Source of the DNA: Candidatus Poseidoniaceae archaeon
GTDB taxonomy: Archaea > Thermoplasmatota > Poseidoniia > Poseidoniales > Poseidoniaceae
DNA: 32,000 nt
Reading direction: 5' to 3'
Assembly: GCA_943789275.1 (NCBI GenBank)
Contig: CALSTM010000002.1
Coordinates: 420,001 to 452,000 of the forward strand
Both the position numbers and the translations under genes were made by a program. Position 1 is the first letter of the stretch, and every line of letters begins with the position of its first letter. Under the pieces are notes generated by a model that saw only the letters and a list, made by a program, of their open reading frames with translations, was not told where the DNA came from and did no database searches. Positions 9,081 to 27,833 of this stretch are shown one piece after another.

Positions 9081-10295
9081 TTATCCTTGAACGATTTCGT
9101 TCGGCGCAGTGGCTTGCCAAGCCATGATTCCACCTTCAAGGTTATACAGACGAGTGGCATCGTACCCCGAATGAATCAGATACATAGCCGCCATTTGAGA
9201 ACGCATTCCACTTCGGCAGAGGACGACCACATCTCGGTCTTGGGGTATTGATTCCAAAACGTTCGTAACCGACTCATGATTAATTTGAAAGTCGGTTGAT
9301 TCGACATGGGCCTGATTGTATTCGCCTTCTGAGCGTACATCAAGAACAAATGGGCTCCAACCTTCCTTCCGACGGTCGAGAAGTTGTTGTACAGTGATTG
9401 AGTTAAACATCGTGTCATTGGCAGAGGCTTCTCCTTCATCAACCTCACCTCGAGTGCTGACCCTCATGCACCATTCTTCATTATCAAACATCGATTGACT
9501 CATCGAGAGGTCAACAACTGGAGTTCGATTGGGGTTGGATGTATACTGGAGCGTGTCAAAGCTCATTGCTTGGGCATCGTACAACAGCAATCGACCGTTC
9601 AGTACATCGCCAAGACCAAGAATGAGTTTGATGACTTCGTTGGCTTGCAATGAGCCGATAACGCCAGGGAGCACACCAAGAACTCCCCCCTCGGCACATG
9701 ACGGGATGGTTTGTGGAGGTGGTGCTTCTGAAAAAAGGTCGCGATAACATGGGCCACCGTTGACATTAAACACGCTCACTTGCCCTTCGAAACGATATAT
9801 AGAACCGTAGACCCAAGGTATATTTTTGAGAAAACAGACATCGTCTATGAGGTAGCGAGTTGGTAAATTATCCGTCCCATCAACGACTGCATTCCAAGTT
9901 TCTTGAAAAATACCCTCAACATGCTCTGGAGCAAATTGAAGATCAAAAGTGCTGATGTTCAAGTCCGGATTCAAGGCGAGTAAACGCTTTTTCGCAGAAT
10001 CTACTTTCGGTTGACCGACTTCGGAAGTTGAATGAATGACCTGCCTTTGGAGGTTTGATACATCAACTCGGTCGTGATCCACTATCCCAATATGCCCAAT
10101 TCCTGCTGCCGCCAAATAGAGCAATACAGGGCTTCCTAAACCTCCAGCACCGATGACAAGAACGCTTGCATCAGCGAGTTTTTGCTGCCCTTCAATACCA
10201 ACCTGTGGCAGAGAAATATGACGAGCATAGCGCTGAGTATCGACGTTCACAATGAATCCCGAGCCGTTCCAAGCGTGGTCGAAACATAAACTCAT
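9081..10295 (-). CDS. MoeB/ThiF/UbaA-type E1-like adenylyltransferase fused to a C-terminal rhodanese domain
   Basis: RYARHISLPQVG...VLVIGAGGLGSPVLLYLAAAGIGHIGIVDHDRVDVSNLQRQ (ATP-binding E1 core), the active Cys in PSCAEGGVLG, and a rhodanese loop VVLCRSGMRS. The ATG is at 10295; the track TTG is at 10307. Confidence 0.85.
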   Translation of the reverse strand: MSLCFDHAWNGSGFIVNVDTQRYARHISLPQVGIEGQQKLADASVLVIGAGGLGSPVLLYLAAAGIGHIGIVDHDRVDVSNLQRQVIHSTSEVGQPKVDSAKKRLLALNPDLNISTFDLQFAPEHVEGIFQETWNAVVDGTDNLPTRYLIDDVCFLKNIPWVYGSIYRFEGQVSVFNVNGGPCYRDLFSEAPPPQTIPSCAEGGVLGVLPGVIGSLQANEVIKLILGLGDVLNGRLLLYDAQAMSFDTLQYTSNPNRTPVVDLSMSQSMFDNEEWCMRVSTRGEVDEGEASANDTMFNSITVQQLLDRRKEGWSPFVLDVRSEGEYNQAHVESTDFQINHESVTNVLESIPQDRDVVVLCRSGMRSQMAAMYLIHSGYDATRLYNLEGGIMAWQATAPNEIVQG

Positions 10296-10303
10296 TGAAC
10301 AGT

Positions 10304-11230
10304 TCAATGTTGGTCTTCAAGCCACTTTTCGACATCCATAGCAGCTTGACAACCCATACCGGCTGCAGTTATAGCCTGCTTGTAACGGGTGTCGACAACA
10401 TCTCCAGCAGCAAAAACGCCCTCGACAGAGGTCATGGTGTGCTTCTTGTGCAAGATGTAGCCTTCATCATCGACTTCAACTTGTCCACCCAGGAAACCTG
10501 TAATCGGTTTATGTCCAATGGCAATGAACGCTCCTGTCACGTTTATCGATTCAATTGAACCGTCACGTGGGTCTTCAAGAACTGCACCCGTTAGGCCTTT
10601 CTCGTCCGACAGCCATTCCTTGACTTGACGGAAGGTTTTGATTTCGATTTTTTCATGGTTGAGAGCACGCTCGTACATGATTGTGGATGCTTTGAAAACA
10701 TCTCTTCGATGAACAAGCGTAACTTTGGAAGCGAACCGTGTAAGGAAGGTTGCCTCCTCACAAGCGGAGTCTCCACCCCCAATCACCATGACTTCTTCAT
10801 CTCTAAAGAATGCGCCATCGCATGTTGCACATGTGGAAATTCCACGGCCTTTTTGAGCCTCTTCACCTGGAGCGTTGAGCCATATTGATTCTGCCCCGGT
10901 CGATACGATGATGGCATTGGCGAGGAATGTTTCCCCTTCGACAACGACCTTGAACGGTTGCTCGGAGACATCCACTGATTCGACATTCTGGTCACGAACC
11001 TCGAGTCCGAAGCGTTCAGCCTGTTCACGCAGTTCCATCATCATCTCTGGACCACCGATGCCCTTAGGATAGCCTGGGAAGTTCTCAATGTCCGAAGTAA
11101 GCATCAACTGACCTCCAGACATGTAGCCACCAAACATGAGCGGTTCAAGCATGGCACGAGCGGCATAGAGGCCTGCAGTATATCCTGCTGGGCCGGAGCC
11201 AATGATGATGACGTTGTGTACTTTCGACAT
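10304..11230 (-). CDS. trxB: thioredoxin-disulfide reductase
   Basis: GSGPAGYTAGLYAAR FAD motif, redox CATCDGAFF, and NADPH motif GGGDSACEEA. Confidence 0.92.
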   Translation of the reverse strand: MSKVHNVIIIGSGPAGYTAGLYAARAMLEPLMFGGYMSGGQLMLTSDIENFPGYPKGIGGPEMMMELREQAERFGLEVRDQNVESVDVSEQPFKVVVEGETFLANAIIVSTGAESIWLNAPGEEAQKGRGISTCATCDGAFFRDEEVMVIGGGDSACEEATFLTRFASKVTLVHRRDVFKASTIMYERALNHEKIEIKTFRQVKEWLSDEKGLTGAVLEDPRDGSIESINVTGAFIAIGHKPITGFLGGQVEVDDEGYILHKKHTMTSVEGVFAAGDVVDTRYKQAITAAGMGCQAAMDVEKWLEDQH

Positions 11231-15162: not shown

Positions 15163-16161
15163 ATGGCACATATTGCGATTTTAGGATTAGGAAATTGGGG
15201 AACAGCCATTGCTCGAATGTGGTTGGCAGATAACCACAACGTCAAGGGTTGGACAATTGAACAAGAAGTATATGAATCCATTACGATGGATTCAGTCAAC
15301 GCTAAGTATCTCCCTGAACATTCACTGGAAGGTTTGGAGGCGACCATGCACATCGAAGAAGCACTCGAAGGCGTTGAAATTGTCGTACTGGCTGTCCCAT
15401 CTTCTGTTATATTGAAAGTGGTGGACCAAATTATACCTCACCTTCGACCGGGCCATGTCTTGCTTGATTTGGCCAAAGGGTTGGCACCTGGAAATACCCT
15501 CATTTCCGAAGCGATTCAAGACAAATTGAACAACGCCGGAAAAAACAACACGTTAGCGGTGGTTACTGGCCCGACCATAGCTCCTGAGGCAGCAAGCGGC
15601 GTCATGACCACTGCCCTTGTGGCCAGTGAAGATGTATCAGTCGCTCAACACCTTGCCACAACGCTCACGACTCAAACGTTCATCCTGCATCCTGCTGCTG
15701 ATCCTGCTGGTGCTGAATTGTGGGGTGCGTTCAAAAATGTTGTAGCGCTTGCCTGTGGGCTTGTAGACGGTCTGAAAAAAGTAGGCTCACTTGGCGGTGA
15801 CAACCTCAAAGCTGCTATTTTCATGGCTGGTTTCAAAGAAGGATGCATTCTTCTCCCACAACTTGGAGCACGAGCTGAGGTTGCGTTTGGACCTGCTGGG
15901 CTTGGCGACTTGTACGTCACTGCAACCTCGCCTCACGGGCGAAACCGAACAATGGGGGAGAAACTCGGAACGGGTCTTACCGTCGAACAAGCACTCGAAG
16001 AAATGCACATGGTTGCCGAGGGGGTTCGGGCAACCCGTATGTTTGCAGAACGGGCGGAAGATGATGGCATTGACACGCCTTTCACCAAAGCTCTCAACAC
16101 GCTGTTAGACGGCTATATTGACGCTGAAGAATGCTGTCGTAGAATGGTCGCACTTGGTTGA
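15163..16161 (+). CDS. gpsA: NAD(P)H-dependent sn-glycerol-3-phosphate dehydrogenase (bacterial type)
   Basis: ILGLGNWGTAIA Rossmann motif, VNAKYLPEHSL motif, and collinearity with GpsA to the C-terminus. Confidence 0.88.
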   Translation: MAHIAILGLGNWGTAIARMWLADNHNVKGWTIEQEVYESITMDSVNAKYLPEHSLEGLEATMHIEEALEGVEIVVLAVPSSVILKVVDQIIPHLRPGHVLLDLAKGLAPGNTLISEAIQDKLNNAGKNNTLAVVTGPTIAPEAASGVMTTALVASEDVSVAQHLATTLTTQTFILHPAADPAGAELWGAFKNVVALACGLVDGLKKVGSLGGDNLKAAIFMAGFKEGCILLPQLGARAEVAFGPAGLGDLYVTATSPHGRNRTMGEKLGTGLTVEQALEEMHMVAEGVRATRMFAERAEDDGIDTPFTKALNTLLDGYIDAEECCRRMVALG

Positions 16162-25300: not shown

Positions 25301-25356
25301 TGGCTTGAACCGGCATCCTCAAAAGAGGAGGTTCAGCCCAATAAGCAGGTGAAGGT

Positions 25357-26784
25357 ATGTTTACAGGTGTAATTGAGTCCAAAAGCCACGAAGGTGGTTT
25401 TCTTGTTTCGTTCACCGGTTCATCACCGGCCCTTGAATCGATTATCATCAATGCTGAATCTGGTATTTACATTGGCAAAGTCGATGCAGTCCTTGGGAAC
25501 ACCAACGCTCCTCTTGCCCACGTGGCTCACATTGACCGAAAACTCGACCTTGATGCTCTCATCGGTGTCGAAGTAGGAATCCGCGCCAAAAAGCAACGAG
25601 AAGAGCGTAGCAGAGGATCTGAAAGAGACGGTCGAAGGGACGATCGTAGAGGTGGCCGAGATGACGGAGGATACCAAAGCAGAGACCGACAGGGTCGGCG
25701 CTTCGAACGGAACGACCGTGGTCGCAGTGACAACCGTGGCGGTGGTGACTGGGATTGTCCAAAATGTCAAAATTCAAACTTCGCATTCCGAACCGAATGC
25801 AACCGATGCGGTGAACCCAAAGGACACGGTGGAGGCCGTGGGCGAAGCGATGACCGCAGAGGCGGACGAGACGACCGTGGGTACCAAAGTCGAGACCGAC
25901 AAGGCGGTCGCTTTGAACGAAACGACCGAGGTCGCGGTGACAACCGTGGCGGTAGCGACTGGGATTGTCCAAAATGTCAAAATTCAAACTTCGCATTCCG
26001 AACCGAATGCAACCGATGCGGTGAACCCAAAGGACACGGTGGAGGCCGTGGACGAAGCGATGACCGTAGAGGCGGACGAGACGACCGTAGAGGCGGACGA
26101 GACGACCGGGGTAACAGAGGCGGACGCGGTGGAGAAATCTACAACGATAACGACTGGGATTGTCCAAAATGCCAGAACTCAAATTTCGCATTCCGGAACG
26201 AATGCAACCGATGCGGAGAACCTCGCGGTGGTGGCGGAGGCCGTGGTCGAAGCGATGACCGCAGAGGTGGCCGGGACGATCGAAGTCGGGGCGGTGACCG
26301 CGGTTACCAAAGCAGAGACCGACAAGGTGGACGCTTTGAGAGAGGAGGAGGCGGTGGTAACGAAGACCGTCGCGATGGCGATTGGGACTGTTCCAAATGT
26401 CAGAATTCTAATTTTGCCTTCCGAACAGAATGCAACCGATGCGGTGCATCACGTGGTGGAGGCGGAGGGCGTGGACCTCGCAGAGACACTCGAGAACGAA
26501 CGCCTCAACGCAATTCCGGTGATCGACCTCCTCGAAGAGAGTTTTCAGAACGACCCCCGCGAAGAGAGGGTGATCGACCTCCACGCAGAGATGGACGCGA
26601 CCGCCGCGTTGAACGAGGAACTCAGAATCGAGGTTCGTACAATCAAAGTCGCTCTCGAGGCGATGATCGACCAGCGGAACGCAAATCACGTGAACCTCGA
26701 ACCTTCCGAAAATCACGAGGAAATGGTCCGGGCCATGCCCACAACCGACCTCCTAAACCATTGACTCGAGAACGAGAAGATTGA
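25357..26784 (+). CDS. Gar1-like beta-barrel protein with Arg/Gly/Asp-rich repeats and four RanBP2-type zinc fingers
   Basis: AGGTGA lies 4 nt upstream of the ATG. Residues 1-78 resemble archaeal Gar1. There are four copies of DWDC(P/S)KCQNSNFAFR(T/N)ECNRCG, which fit W-x-C-x2-C-x3-N-x6-C-x2-C. RGG/RG-rich spacers and an RPPRR(E/D) x3 tail complete the protein. Confidence 0.8.
   Translation: MFTGVIESKSHEGGFLVSFTGSSPALESIIINAESGIYIGKVDAVLGNTNAPLAHVAHIDRKLDLDALIGVEVGIRAKKQREERSRGSERDGRRDDRRGGRDDGGYQSRDRQGRRFERNDRGRSDNRGGGDWDCPKCQNSNFAFRTECNRCGEPKGHGGGRGRSDDRRGGRDDRGYQSRDRQGGRFERNDRGRGDNRGGSDWDCPKCQNSNFAFRTECNRCGEPKGHGGGRGRSDDRRGGRDDRRGGRDDRGNRGGRGGEIYNDNDWDCPKCQNSNFAFRNECNRCGEPRGGGGGRGRSDDRRGGRDDRSRGGDRGYQSRDRQGGRFERGGGGGNEDRRDGDWDCSKCQNSNFAFRTECNRCGASRGGGGGRGPRRDTRERTPQRNSGDRPPRREFSERPPRREGDRPPRRDGRDRRVERGTQNRGSYNQSRSRGDDRPAERKSREPRTFRKSRGNGPGHAHNRPPKPLTRERED
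25640..26460 (+). repeat. in-frame coding tandem repeats (units of 210, 195 and 228 nt)
   Basis: The zinc-finger units start at 25747, 25957, 26152 and 26380. 25747..25841 is identical to 25957..26051 (95 nt). Confidence 0.85.
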
Positions 26785-26828
26785 GCGGTGAAGACGCATG
26801 AGTGCTGAACATCATTACCTGAACGCCG

Positions 26829-27833
26829 TTGAAGCGTACGATGAGAACGATGCTGAAAAAGCCTACGAGGAAGCTCGTAAGGCGGTCAAGCTTAGACCCT
26901 GAGCACATCGATGCCTGGCAAATTTGTGCAGAAACGATTCTCCCTCCGAAAGGAGAAAAGCCTTCCTTGATTCAAGCGGCAAAGTCGCTTGCTGCTGTTC
27001 GAAAAATCATCGAATTAGATCCGAACAGAACAGCAATGTGGATGCTTGGAGGACGTTTGTTGACAGATGAACTTGGTCTCCTCAGTGAAGGATTACAATG
27101 GTGGCAAGACCTTCGACACCATTTGCCAAAGGAAGTAACACCATTGGTTGAACAAGCATCACTTCTCGCCGATATGGGACATTATCTTGAGGCAAAGTAC
27201 CGACTTGACACCATCATTGAAGAAAACATGGATGGCGGCCCGAGCCAAATTGCAAAGATTCACCAATTGCGGAATCAAGTTATTGCTGCGGCAAATCTTC
27301 AACCAAGTGAGCATTTCAAGCCGTGGGAAAAACACCACAATGGATGGGGCGCTATCGAATCAAAGATGGGCAAAGGCCCTGTGTCGGAAAGTTTCCTGTT
27401 CATGATTACTACGGTTCCGGTTTTGTTTGCCGTAGTGATTTTTTCGAGGCAATTGGCCGGTGAAGGATGGGGTGCATTCTGTCTTACCAGTCTGATCGTA
27501 TTCGGCACCGTATTGTTCGGAATGCGATTTTCCAAAAATATGTTTCATAAAATCAACCGGCCAGCGTTTAATCTTCTTCGCGCTATGAATTTTGAAGCAA
27601 ATACGGGTTATTCAATCATCCATGAAGGCATTCGAACCTCAACGTTGTACATGTACATCATGCAAAGAAAGCCTGTTGCTTGGCAAGAGCGTTCGATGAA
27701 AATAATTGAAGATGCCACACCATTGCCGAAAAATTGGAAACCAAAATTCCCAGACTTTGATTCTCATCTTGATGAAATAGGATTCATTGATGAAGGTGAG
27801 GAAGATTCCTTTGAACCGTTTGAAGAAGAATAA
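26829..27833 (+). CDS. TPR-like N-terminal / two-TM membrane protein with an acidic C-terminus (5' end probably frameshifted, see findings)
   Basis: Long ORF containing TPR-like LDPEHIDAW and ELDPNRTAMW segments and hydrophobic helices FLFMITTVPVLFAVVIF and AFCLTSLIVFGTVLFGM. The track start is a TTG with no SD. Confidence 0.6.
   Translation: MKRTMRTMLKKPTRKLVRRSSLDPEHIDAWQICAETILPPKGEKPSLIQAAKSLAAVRKIIELDPNRTAMWMLGGRLLTDELGLLSEGLQWWQDLRHHLPKEVTPLVEQASLLADMGHYLEAKYRLDTIIEENMDGGPSQIAKIHQLRNQVIAAANLQPSEHFKPWEKHHNGWGAIESKMGKGPVSESFLFMITTVPVLFAVVIFSRQLAGEGWGAFCLTSLIVFGTVLFGMRFSKNMFHKINRPAFNLLRAMNFEANTGYSIIHEGIRTSTLYMYIMQRKPVAWQERSMKIIEDATPLPKNWKPKFPDFDSHLDEIGFIDEGEEDSFEPFEEE

What the first reader, a model, noticed from the sequence alone, without database searches (positions are those of the whole stretch)
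25357..26784. Gar1-like barrel fused to RGG-type spacers and four RanBP2-type zinc fingers: a eukaryote-style RNA-binding architecture in a prokaryotic gene context
The 475-aa ORF has a strong SD (AGGTGA, 4 nt before the ATG). Residues 1-78 (GVIESKSHEGGFLVSF..SPALES..IYIGKVDAVLGNTNAPLAHV...LIGVEVGI) align by eye with the archaeal Gar1 H/ACA-RNP barrel (G..h....gflv......P.l...v.....iG.V.dvfGpv..Pyv.v......G..v). The remainder has three eukaryote-like elements:
- Arg/Gly/Asp-rich spacers with RGG/RG motifs, for example GGGRGRSDDRRGGRDDRGYQSRDRQGGRFERNDRGRGDNRGG.
- Four exact RanBP2-type fingers of the form W-x-C-x2-C-x3-N-x6-C-x2-C (DWDCPKCQNSNFAFRTECNRCG), with Trp codons at 25750, 25960, 26155 and 26383.
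- Three copies of (D/E)RPPRR(E/D) near the C-terminus.
The NF-x2-R-x2-CNRC core matches the ssRNA-binding RanBP2 subclass (ZRANB2, FUS/EWS/TAF15, RBM5/10). Eukaryotic Gar1 is flanked by Gly/Arg-rich domains, whereas archaeal Gar1 is normally a bare barrel. The RGG plus RanBP2 combination is the hallmark of the FET family. The neighbouring genes show prokaryotic operon features (SDs, overlapping stops and starts), which argues against eukaryotic contamination.
Basis: partly seen in the sequence, partly recalled or inferred. Interest (0 to 1): 0.85.

Follow-up and report, generated by a model that had tools for sequence, protein, structure and literature searches.

The report
Archaeal Gar1 with RNA-binding zinc fingers
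An abundant group of marine archaea (Marine Group II, Poseidoniales) encodes a homologue of Gar1, a subunit of the RNA pseudouridylation machinery, that has gained a long disordered arginine/glycine-rich tail with two to five zinc fingers of the kind that FUS and ZRANB2 use to bind RNA, a feature the literature describes as absent from archaea.

Summary
ORF 25357..26784 (+) encodes 475 aa with four PF00641 RanBP2 fingers (E=1.9e-33), R/G/D-rich spacers and three RPPRR repeats.

Residues 1-80 are a Gar1 barrel. The AF2 model has pLDDT 87, and its nine best PDB matches are all Gar1 chains (TM 0.83-0.85 to P. furiosus Gar1). A diverse family profile hits P. furiosus Gar1 at E=2e-5. Single sequences stay below Pfam's cut-off.

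The fingers match FUS, ZNF265/ZRANB2 and RBM10 best. The published GGU-contact positions are 94-100% conserved in 201 distinct family fingers.

The gene is not contamination. At least 206 species-level genomes carry it, almost all labelled Poseidoniales. Flanking genes are conserved in all 80 loci inspected.

One relative on a 2.5-Mb contig has only the barrel and a basic tail at the same position. The finger-bearing protein is therefore most likely the lineage's Gar1 orthologue with an added tail.

Inferred, not shown: it sits on Cbf5 in the H/ACA particle, and the tail tethers GGU-containing single-stranded RNA or promotes multivalent assembly.

I could not check for a second gar1, or for cbf5 and nop10, in the same genome. 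I found no paper on this fusion. Verdict: new variant of a known kind.

The parts
25347..25352 (+). Shine-Dalgarno-like AGGTGA, 4 nt before the start codon
   Evidence: Read directly from the sequence.
25357..26784 (+). Complete coding sequence, 475 aa plus stop: Gar1-like barrel, RG-rich spacers, four RanBP2 zinc fingers and a basic tail
   Evidence: ORF list. Full-length homologues exist across Poseidoniales.
25357..25596 (+). Gar1-type six-stranded beta-barrel (aa 1-80)
   Evidence: AF2 pLDDT 87. The nine best Foldseek PDB matches are all Gar1, TMt 0.83-0.85 and rmsd 1.5-2.0 A to P. furiosus Gar1. Profile A4 hits 2hvy_B at E=2e-5. Gar1 is the best Pfam family for 23 of 24 family members, all below the cut-off.
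25597..25743 (+). Disordered R/G/D-rich spacer 1 (aa 81-129)
   Evidence: Composition; pLDDT below 50.
25744..25821 (+). RanBP2-type zinc finger 1 (GDWDCPKCQNSNFAFRTECNRCGEPK)
   Evidence: PF00641; pLDDT about 85; best PDB matches FUS, ZNF265 and ZRANB2.
25822..25953 (+). Disordered R/G/D-rich spacer 2 (aa 156-199)
   Evidence: Part of the 210-nt tandem DNA repeat at 25633-26088.
25954..26031 (+). RanBP2-type zinc finger 2
26032..26148 (+). Disordered R/G/D-rich spacer 3 (aa 226-264)
26149..26226 (+). RanBP2-type zinc finger 3
26227..26376 (+). Disordered R/G/D-rich spacer 4 (aa 291-340)
26377..26454 (+). RanBP2-type zinc finger 4
26521..26592 (+). Three (D/E)RPPRR(E/D) repeats in the basic C-terminal tail
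   Evidence: TRF 27-nt period at 26518-26591.
26704..26760 (+). Conserved C-terminal peptide FRKSRGNGPGHAHNRPPKP (aa 450-468), function unknown
   Evidence: A GHAHN-type motif was found near the C-terminus of 97 of 302 family proteins; many of the others are cut by contig ends or frameshifted. G459, N463 and P466 are nearly invariant. No PDB or Pfam match.
26798..27833 (+). Tightly linked downstream gene (TPR-like N-terminus plus membrane segments), start 14 nt after the stop; carries a 1-nt frameshift near 26890 in this window
   Evidence: Comparison with L002, L003, L006, L008 and L011. The gene pair is conserved in 55 of 80 loci. Only weak TPR hits.

Best explanation
This is the Gar1 protein of a Marine Group II archaeon (Poseidoniales, family Poseidoniaceae). 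Gar1 is the small barrel subunit that sits on the pseudouridine synthase Cbf5 in H/ACA guide-RNA particles.

In this lineage Gar1 has been extended by about 400 residues. The extension is disordered Arg/Gly/Asp-rich sequence carrying four (in relatives one to five) RanBP2-type zinc fingers of the single-stranded-RNA-binding subclass. It ends in a conserved GHAHN peptide.

Shown: the Gar1 fold and sequence relationship of residues 1-80; four confidently folded fingers that keep every residue known to contact GGU in ZRANB2, FUS and EWS; disordered linkers; order-wide conservation at a fixed chromosomal position; and a relative at the same position that has only the barrel and a basic tail.

Inferred: the barrel docks on Cbf5 as in Pyrococcus. 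The tail acts as a flexible, multivalent tether that captures GGU/GGG-containing single-stranded RNA (substrate rRNA or tRNA, or other transcripts). This would raise local substrate concentration or promote higher-order RNA-protein assemblies, functionally analogous to the GAR domains of eukaryotic Gar1.

The finger-plus-spacer modules expand and contract by in-frame recombination between 210-nt repeats.
For: Gar1 domain:
- The AF2 model has pLDDT 87.
- Foldseek ranks 1-9 are all Gar1. P. furiosus Gar1 gives TMt 0.83-0.85 and rmsd 1.5-2.0 A. Naf1 and F1/V1-ATPase barrels score clearly worse.
- The family profile A4 hits P. furiosus Gar1 at E=2e-5 over residues 12-80 against 19-85, and yeast Gar1 at E=0.025.
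- Gar1 is the best Pfam family for 23 of 24 members, best E=5.6e-5, and matched all ten distant members, as the only family for eight and beside the RanBP finger for two.
- Two distant members carry a precomputed PF04410 hit.
- JGI names four members 'rRNA processing protein Gar1'.

Fingers:
- PF00641 matches four times at E=1.9e-33.
- The best PDB matches are FUS at 4.7e-7, ZNF265 at 8.6e-7, ZRANB2 finger 2 at 2.3e-6 and RBM10 at 3e-4. Nup153, RanBP2, TAB2 and HOIP score lower.
- Positions D4, N14, F17, F19, R20 and N24 (numbering and roles from PMC6384913) are conserved at 100, 94, 98, 79 (+3% W), 100 and 94% in 201 distinct family fingers.

Architecture: the barrel and fingers have pLDDT 84-93; the spacers and tail are below 50.

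Genuine archaeal gene:
- 206 GTDB species genomes carry it.
- The gene order ABC ATPase, ABC-2 permease, 670-aa protein, this gene, TPR-like gene, 980-aa protein is conserved in 80 of 80 loci.

Orthology with a plain Gar1-type architecture: L081 has barrel plus basic tail at the same position.

Module turnover: a 210-nt repeat at 90% identity; one to four fingers among 50 complete genome copies.
Against: - The window protein scores only 11-15 bits against Pfam Gar1 (cut-off 29.3) and 13 bits against NCBIfam Gar1 (cut-off 107). A shallow profile did not find Gar1 in the PDB.
- I could not check whether the same genomes also hold a canonical bare gar1, or whether they hold cbf5, nop10 and H/ACA guide RNAs.
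- No H/ACA-related gene lies in the window, and no Rfam family matches.
- Cbf5 binding, RNA binding and zinc binding are all untested.
- The acidic content of the spacers differs from eukaryotic GAR domains.
- Finger copy number may be distorted by short-read assembly.
Confidence: 0.6

Rival explanations
1. It is a Gar1-fold paralogue or derivative that no longer belongs to the H/ACA particle. It would be a stand-alone multivalent single-stranded-RNA-binding protein, for example an RNA chaperone, a regulator of mRNA or rRNA, or a condensate scaffold. The barrel would serve a different partner, possibly the conserved TPR-like membrane protein encoded 14 nt downstream.
For: The barrel is highly divergent from canonical Gar1 (below threshold in Pfam and NCBIfam). 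The genomic context has no RNA-modification genes. The gene pair with the downstream TPR-like membrane protein is conserved. The invariant C-terminal GHAHN peptide has no counterpart in known Gar1 proteins.
Against: The family's most conserved positions (P24, L26, G40, V45, G47) align with matching residues of P. furiosus Gar1 (PsL and vG..kdvfG). A syntenic relative has the ordinary barrel-plus-basic-tail architecture of archaeal Gar1. No second Gar1-like family turned up in any search seeded from this family, although such a search would probably miss a canonical Gar1. gar1 need not be linked to cbf5 (my recollection, not checked here).
Confidence: 0.25
2. The fingers bind protein rather than RNA, as the Npl4/TAB2/HOIP (NZF) fingers bind ubiquitin and the Nup153/RanBP2 fingers bind Ran. 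The tail would then be a protein-recruitment platform.
For: RanBP2-type fingers as a class bind either protein or RNA (PMC6509490; PMC8034646 abstract). The window also encodes a ThiF/rhodanese E1-like enzyme at 9081-10307.
Against: The fingers lack the Thr-Phe dipeptide that ubiquitin-binding NZF fingers carry right after the first Cys pair (from my own knowledge). They read QNSN there instead. They retain all GGU-contact positions. They score 3-6 orders of magnitude better against FUS, ZNF265 and ZRANB2 than against TAB2, HOIP and RanBP2 fingers.
Confidence: 0.07
3. The eukaryote-like part is an artefact: eukaryotic contamination, a chimeric contig, or a wrong-frame translation of a low-complexity repeat.
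For: GC rises to 0.55-0.60 across the tail against 0.49 for the window. Long alternative-frame ORFs exist across the repeats, and some database entries are wrong-frame calls. Many contigs break inside the gene.
Against: The same architecture occurs in the same flanking context in 80 of 80 independent genome assemblies. One uninterrupted frame links the barrel, four fingers and a conserved C-terminal peptide. The GC rise follows from Arg, Gly and Asp codons. No relative was found in viral contigs.
Confidence: 0.02

Closest known systems
Archaeal Gar1 (e.g. Pyrococcus furiosus Gar1 in Cbf5-Nop10-Gar1 and full H/ACA RNP structures, PDB 2EY4, 2HVY, 3HAY)
   Same: It shares the six-stranded barrel (TMt 0.83-0.85, rmsd 1.5-2.0 A). 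The sequence relationship is detectable by profile (E=2e-5). The conserved P-x-L and G-x-V-x-x-V-x-G positions align with matching residues of P. furiosus Gar1.
   Different: Archaeal Gar1 is described as a bare core lacking GAR domains (PMC1865073; PMC11528048). Here about 400 extra residues follow the barrel, with four zinc fingers. Sequence identity in the structural alignment is only 14-15%. Single sequences fall below the Pfam and NCBIfam cut-offs.
Eukaryotic Gar1/GAR1 with flanking glycine-arginine-rich (GAR) domains
   Same: It has the barrel core (Foldseek hits to yeast, human and insect Gar1) joined to a disordered Arg/Gly-rich region with RGG triplets. The likely role is to add non-specific RNA affinity and multivalency.
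   Different: The extension is C-terminal only. It is rich in Asp and Glu (17.5%), so it is a polyampholyte rather than a polycation. It is interrupted by folded zinc fingers, which eukaryotic Gar1 does not have.
FET proteins (FUS, EWS, TAF15) and ZRANB2: RGG regions combined with ssRNA-binding RanBP2 fingers
   Same: The fingers are most similar to FUS and ZNF265/ZRANB2. They keep D4, N14, an aromatic at 17, an aromatic at 19 (the FUS/EWS state), R20 and N24, the residues tied to GGU/GGG specificity (PMC6384913). RGG-rich sequence flanks the fingers.
   Different: There is no RRM, no prion-like domain and no RS domain. The protein has four tandem fingers with a C-x2-C first knuckle; FUS has a single finger with C-x4-C. 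It is fused to Gar1. The host has no spliceosome or nucleus, so the eukaryotic targets (5' splice sites) cannot apply.
Plant organelle zinc finger (OZ) family and other multi-RanBP2-finger RNA factors
   Same: They carry tandem RanBP2 fingers and act on organellar, prokaryote-type RNA in editing and splicing (PMC8034646, PMC7154859).
   Different: The partner domains differ, and no Gar1 barrel is present. No relationship beyond the finger itself was tested.
Sulfolobus ArnA (RanBP2-type finger plus FHA domain)
   Same: It shows that RanBP2-type fingers do occur in archaea (PMC6509490).
   Different: It has a single finger in a signalling protein, with no RGG sequence, no Gar1 barrel and no evidence for the RNA-binding subclass.

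Membership tests
Gar1 (H/ACA RNP subunit; Pfam PF04410, COG3277) | Six-stranded Gar1-type beta-barrel fold | tested here: met
   AF2 pLDDT 87. Foldseek ranks 1-9 are all Gar1, with TMt 0.83-0.85 to P. furiosus Gar1; other barrels score TMq 0.51 or less.
Gar1 (H/ACA RNP subunit; Pfam PF04410, COG3277) | Sequence match to the curated family model at its cut-off | tested here: not met
   Against PF04410 the full protein scores 11.2 bits and the barrel alone 15.5 bits (cut-off 29.3). Against NCBIfam NF009632 the barrel scores 13.2 bits (cut-off 107).
Gar1 (H/ACA RNP subunit; Pfam PF04410, COG3277) | Statistically supported sequence homology to an experimentally characterised Gar1 | tested here: met
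   A profile of 45 diverse family barrels hits P. furiosus Gar1 (2hvy_B) at E=2e-5 over nearly the whole domain. The four P. furiosus Gar1 entries rank first and yeast Gar1 fifth (E=0.025), one rank above an unrelated chain at E=0.029. Gar1 is the best Pfam family for 23 of 24 members. Two distant members carry precomputed PF04410.
Gar1 (H/ACA RNP subunit; Pfam PF04410, COG3277) | Binds the catalytic domain of Cbf5 in a Cbf5-Nop10-L7Ae-guide RNA particle | not testable with these tools
   No complex prediction or biochemistry is available. cbf5 and nop10 are not in the window.
Gar1 (H/ACA RNP subunit; Pfam PF04410, COG3277) | Is the only Gar1 homologue of the genome (orthologue rather than paralogue) | not tested
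   Whole genomes could not be scanned. Indirect support comes from one copy per genome at a fixed syntenic position and a syntenic relative with a plain barrel-plus-basic-tail architecture.
RanBP2-type zinc finger (Pfam PF00641) | W-x-C-x2-4-C-x3-N-x6-C-x2-C signature matching the family model above its cut-off | tested here: met
   Four stretches, 113.8 bits against a cut-off of 27, E=1.9e-33. The exact pattern occurs four times. Each finger is modelled with pLDDT 84-93.
ssRNA-binding subclass of RanBP2 fingers (ZRANB2, FUS/EWS/TAF15, RBM5/10) | Aromatic residue at the base-stacking position 17, plus D4, N14, R20 and N24, and R or an aromatic at 19 | tested here: met
   All four window fingers read D-W-x-C-x2-C-x-N-x-N-F-A-F-R-x-E-C-N-x-C. 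The positions are defined in PMC6384913. They are conserved at 94-100% (79% F at position 19) in 201 distinct family fingers. The closest solved fingers are FUS, ZNF265, ZRANB2 and RBM10.
ssRNA-binding subclass of RanBP2 fingers (ZRANB2, FUS/EWS/TAF15, RBM5/10) | Measured binding to GGU/GGG single-stranded RNA | not testable with these tools
   This needs recombinant protein and binding assays.
GAR/RGG domain | Intrinsically disordered Arg/Gly-rich sequence with repeated RGG or RG | tested here: met
   There are 13 RGG and 28 RG; the tail is 24% Arg and 19.5% Gly; all spacers have pLDDT below 50. The tail departs from classic GAR sequence in having 17.5% Asp+Glu.
GAR/RGG domain | Arginine methylation by a protein arginine methyltransferase | not testable with these tools
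   No methyltransferase candidate lies in the window, and no proteomic data are available.

The most novel reading that the evidence does not exclude
Poseidoniales H/ACA particles carry an archaeal counterpart of the disordered, RNA-binding, condensation-prone extensions that are regarded as a eukaryotic hallmark of snoRNPs. The tail is an RGG-rich region with FUS/ZRANB2-type GGU-binding fingers. It would concentrate nascent rRNA or other RNAs around the pseudouridylation machinery, or form nucleolus-like assemblies in a cell without a nucleus. The fingers would have arisen either by transfer from eukaryotic plankton or from an archaeal stock of RNA-binding RanBP2 fingers.
Probability: 0.3. 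Interest if true: 0.85.

Novelty: new variant of a known kind. Interest (0 to 1): 0.68.

Why it matters
Reviews and recent work state that archaeal Gar1 is a bare core and that GAR-type disordered extensions are absent from archaeal snoRNP-like particles. One recent paper speculates that the two kinds of disordered extension co-evolved with the multilayered organisation of the nucleolus (PMC1865073; PMC11528048).

[quoted passage not shown] The extension is combined with the RNA-binding zinc finger of FUS and ZRANB2.

- If the protein works in the H/ACA particle, it is a natural experiment on what these extensions do without a nucleus or spliceosome.
- It gives a compact, recombinantly tractable system (barrel plus fingers) for testing substrate tethering and condensate formation.
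- Domain-based surveys probably under-report Gar1 in Marine Group II, because the barrel falls below Pfam's threshold.
- Short-read assemblies systematically break or mis-frame this gene.

Tried and rejected
- Eukaryotic contamination or a chimeric contig: rejected by conserved synteny in 80 of 80 genome loci.
- Viral origin: a scan of IMG/VR viral contigs found no relative.
- Ubiquitin- or Ran-binding finger subclass: rejected on residue pattern and PDB ranking.
- Naf1 rather than Gar1: Naf1 chains align clearly worse, TMt 0.54-0.60 against 0.83-0.85.
- A shallow profile (11 close sequences) found no Gar1 in the PDB. Only the diversified profiles did.
- A word-indexed search seeded with the most distant members did not bridge to canonical Gar1 of other archaeal orders.
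- An Rfam scan of the window for H/ACA or other RNAs found nothing.
- Searches with the C-terminal GHAHN peptide found nothing significant in the PDB or Pfam.
- The promoter and terminator scan was uninformative: it uses a bacterial consensus, and the 'terminators' lie inside the finger repeats on the opposite strand.
- Literature searches for this fusion found no paper.
Full report
**1. The observation**

ORF 25357..26784 on the + strand encodes 475 residues from an ATG. AGGTGA lies at 25347-25352, four bases before the ATG.

Each opens an exact W-x-C-x2-C-x3-N-x6-C-x2-C finger. Three (D/E)RPPRR(E/D) copies start at 26521, 26548 and 26572.

Pfam's RanBP2 finger model PF00641 matches four stretches at E=1.9e-33, 113.8 bits against a cut-off of 27.

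Residues 81-474 are 24% Arg, 19.5% Gly, 11% Asp and 6% Glu. They hold 13 RGG triplets and carry a net positive charge, 105 basic against 69 acidic residues.

**2. The N-terminal domain is a Gar1 barrel**

Single-sequence searches are weak.
- Against Pfam Gar1 PF04410 the full protein gives E=0.33 and residues 1-82 alone give E=0.015. Both scores are far below the 29.3-bit cut-off.
- NCBIfam Gar1 gives 13 bits against a cut-off of 107.
- A profile of eleven close relatives found no Gar1 in the PDB.

Three stronger tests agree with each other.
- AlphaFold2 on the domain gives a confident six-strand barrel with mean pLDDT 87. Its nine best Foldseek matches in the PDB are all Gar1 chains. P. furiosus Gar1 gives TM 0.83-0.85 and rmsd 1.5-2.0 A over about 75 columns. 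Human, yeast and insect Gar1 follow. Naf1 (TM 0.54-0.60) and ATP-synthase barrels (TM normalised to the query 0.51 or less) come after.
- As the family alignment is diversified, the sequence signal grows. A 24-sequence profile puts P. furiosus Gar1 first at E=0.018. A 45-sequence profile reaches E=2e-5 over query 12-80 against Gar1 19-85, with yeast Gar1 at E=0.025.
- Gar1 is the best Pfam family for 23 of 24 family members, best E=5.6e-5. It matched all ten distant members, as the only family for eight and beside the RanBP finger for two. Two distant members carry a precomputed PF04410 hit. JGI names four members 'rRNA processing protein Gar1'.

The family's most conserved positions (P24, L26, G40, V45, G47) align with matching residues in P. 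furiosus Gar1, namely P-s-L and vG-i-v-k-d-v-f-G.

**3. The fingers belong to the RNA-binding subclass**

A single window finger matches these solved structures best:

| Solved finger | E-value |
|---|---|
| FUS | 4.7e-7 |
| ZNF265 (ZRANB2 finger 1) | 8.6e-7 |
| ZRANB2 finger 2 | 2.3e-6 |
| RBM10 | 3e-4 |
| Nup153 | 6e-4 to 0.5 |
| RanBP2 | 0.05 |
| TAB2 | 0.35 |
| HOIP | 0.6 |

De Franco et al. (PMC6384913) define the contact positions in ZRANB2 finger 2.
- D4 is conserved in about 80% of putative RNA-binding fingers.
- N14 and N24 read the third base.
- The aromatic at position 17 stacks between bases.
- R19 and R20 hydrogen-bond the two guanines.
- FUS and EWS have Trp at position 19 and keep GGU/GGG specificity.

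All four window fingers read D4, N14, F17, F19, R20 and N24.

I then examined 201 distinct fingers from family members. They were selected only by the Trp and Cys pattern, so those residues are fixed by construction. The other positions are conserved as follows.

| Position | Conservation |
|---|---|
| D4 | 100% |
| N14 | 94% |
| F17 | 98% |
| Position 19 | 79% F, 3% W, 10% R |
| R20 | 100% |
| N24 | 94% |

The fingers lack the Thr-Phe dipeptide of ubiquitin-binding NZF fingers (my own knowledge of that family). Binding to GGU/GGG single-stranded RNA is therefore a well-founded inference, but it is not shown.

**4. Overall architecture**

A full-length AlphaFold2 model, built on an alignment of 35 sequences, has these features:
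- The barrel (residues 1-80) has pLDDT 86-93.
- The four fingers have pLDDT 84-93.
- Every spacer (82-129, 158-199, 229-263, 293-338) is below 50.
- Nearly all of residues 369-475 are below 50.

The protein is beads on a string: a barrel, then four small folded fingers separated by linkers of 39-50 disordered residues, each linker with a net charge of +3 to +5.

At the extreme C-terminus sits the peptide FRKSRGNGPGHAHNRPPKP (aa 450-468).
- A GHAHN-type motif was found near the C-terminus of 97 of 302 family proteins. Many of the others are cut by contig ends or frameshifted.
- G459, N463 and P466 are nearly invariant.
- It matches nothing significant in the PDB or Pfam.
- Its function is unexplained.

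**5. A real, conserved archaeal gene**

- The barrel family is found only in proteins labelled Poseidoniales, Poseidoniaceae, Poseidonia, Thalassarchaeaceae, Thermoplasmatota or unclassified 'Euryarchaeota'. Two labels differ: P0107 is labelled Woesearchaeota and L075 Verrucomicrobiales. I did not examine either; both are metagenome bins, so mis-binning is possible.
- A scan of one genome per GTDB species found 206 encoded relatives.
- In the 80 best loci the flanking genes are the same as in the window. The order is ABC ATPase, ABC-2 permease, a 670-aa protein, this gene, a TPR-like membrane protein, sometimes a GST, and a 980-aa protein. The 670-aa neighbour is present in 80 of 80 loci.
- The rest of the window holds ordinary prokaryotic metabolic and transport genes.
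- The higher GC of the tail (0.57, against 0.475 for the barrel and 0.486 for the window) follows from Arg, Gly and Asp codons.
- No relative exists in viral contigs.

Contamination and chimerism are excluded.

**6. Variation and evolution**

- Finger-plus-spacer modules are 210-nt tandem DNA repeats at about 90% identity.
- Among the 50 genome copies that are complete and carry the C-terminal peptide, finger number is 1 (3 copies), 2 (22), 3 (17) or 4 (8). Lengths run from 302 to 532 aa. Database proteins reach five fingers.
- More distant members, several labelled Thalassarchaeaceae, have a barrel plus a basic tail with no finger or one variant finger. One member (P0209) has a tail of RGG/GGY repeats resembling a eukaryotic GAR domain.
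- On a 2.5-Mb contig (L081) the gene at the same position is a barrel with a basic tail of about 70 residues and no finger. It lies after the 677-aa protein and before the TPR-like gene. It is split there by a frameshift.
- The finger-bearing protein is thus the positional orthologue of a protein with a bare barrel plus basic tail, which resembles the ordinary archaeal Gar1 layout. The tail looks like a lineage-specific elaboration.
- 24 of 80 contigs end inside the gene, and several database entries are wrong-frame or frameshifted. The exact count of four fingers in the window needs long-read confirmation.

**7. Mechanism**

Shown: the fold and sequence relationship to Gar1; four intact fingers with conserved GGU-contact residues; disordered linkers; order-wide purifying conservation.

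Inferred from established knowledge of the families:
- In Pyrococcus, Gar1 contacts only Cbf5, and the surface that binds RNA in related barrels is used for Cbf5 (PMC1865073).
- Eukaryotic GAR domains are thought to account for RNA cross-links and are prone to condensation (PMC1865073; PMC11528048).

I therefore propose that the barrel docks on Cbf5. The tail would act as a flexible, multivalent tether for GGU/GGG-containing single-stranded RNA. It would raise the local concentration of substrate RNA or drive higher-order assemblies. Confidence in this full chain is about 0.6.

The main rival (about 0.25) is that the barrel has been co-opted outside the H/ACA particle and the protein is a general RNA-binding scaffold. 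I could not test for a second gar1, for cbf5 and nop10 in the same genomes, or for Cbf5 binding.

**8. Comparison with what is known, and novelty**

The closest families are:
- archaeal Gar1, which shares the fold but is described as lacking GAR domains;
- eukaryotic Gar1, which shares the core plus an RG-rich disordered region but has no fingers;
- FET proteins and ZRANB2, which share the finger subclass and the RGG context but have different partner domains and eukaryote-specific targets.

RanBP2-type fingers are not unknown in archaea; Sulfolobus ArnA has one (PMC6509490).

Five literature searches found no description of a Gar1-RanBP2 fusion or of this Marine Group II protein. Sources name it 'hypothetical protein', 'zinc finger protein' or, at JGI, 'rRNA processing protein Gar1'. 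A recent paper states that GAR domains are absent from archaeal snoRNPs (PMC11528048).

I rate it a new variant of a known kind, with interest 0.68.

Noticed in passing
window 26798-27833: The downstream TPR-like membrane-protein gene really starts at ATG 26798, 14 nt after the Gar1-finger stop, with its own GGTGA. In this window it is broken by a 1-nt frameshift near 26888-26892: AAGCTTAGACCC here against AAATTAGACCC (K-L-D-P) in five related genomes. This is either a sequencing error or a pseudogene.
   Followed up: yes
window 26704-26760 (aa 450-468): The C-terminal peptide [FY]R[KR]x[RK]GKxxGHAHN[RQN]xP is conserved across family members with an intact C-terminus. It has no match in the PDB or Pfam, and its function is unknown.
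   Followed up: partly
loci L001-L080; proteins P0001-P0021, P0045, P0156, P0162: Short-read assemblies often break inside the finger repeats: 24 of 80 genome contigs end within the gene. Gene callers sometimes translate the wrong frame of the repeat or run through frameshifts, so public protein entries for this family are often truncated or corrupt.
   Followed up: partly
proteins P0004, P0018, P0161, P0206, P0207: Several ENA/Logan protein entries end in '...LSLIHI', which is the translation of the Nextera adapter CTGTCTCTTATACACATC. Adapter sequence therefore remains at those contig ends.
   Followed up: no
L081 10001-10460: The syntenic Gar1-like gene on a 2.5-Mb polished long-read contig is split into 93-aa and 59-aa calls by a frameshift. 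Read through, it gives a protein of about 150 aa with a barrel and a basic tail. A 151-aa member of the same cluster (P0247) is consistent with this.
   Followed up: partly
window 25781-25802, 25991-26012, 26186-26207 (- strand): Three 'terminator-like' hairpins reported on the minus strand are the same sequence (TTGCATTCGGTTCGGAATGCGA). It lies inside the repeated zinc-finger coding units, so it is a by-product of the repeat rather than a terminator.
   Followed up: no
window 9081-10307 (- strand) and 15163-16161 (+ strand): The window also encodes a ThiF plus rhodanese E1-like enzyme (a MoeB/UbaA-type architecture) and an NAD-dependent glycerol-3-phosphate dehydrogenase that matches a bacterial-type C-terminal domain model (PF20618). 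I saw no link to the finding.
   Followed up: no
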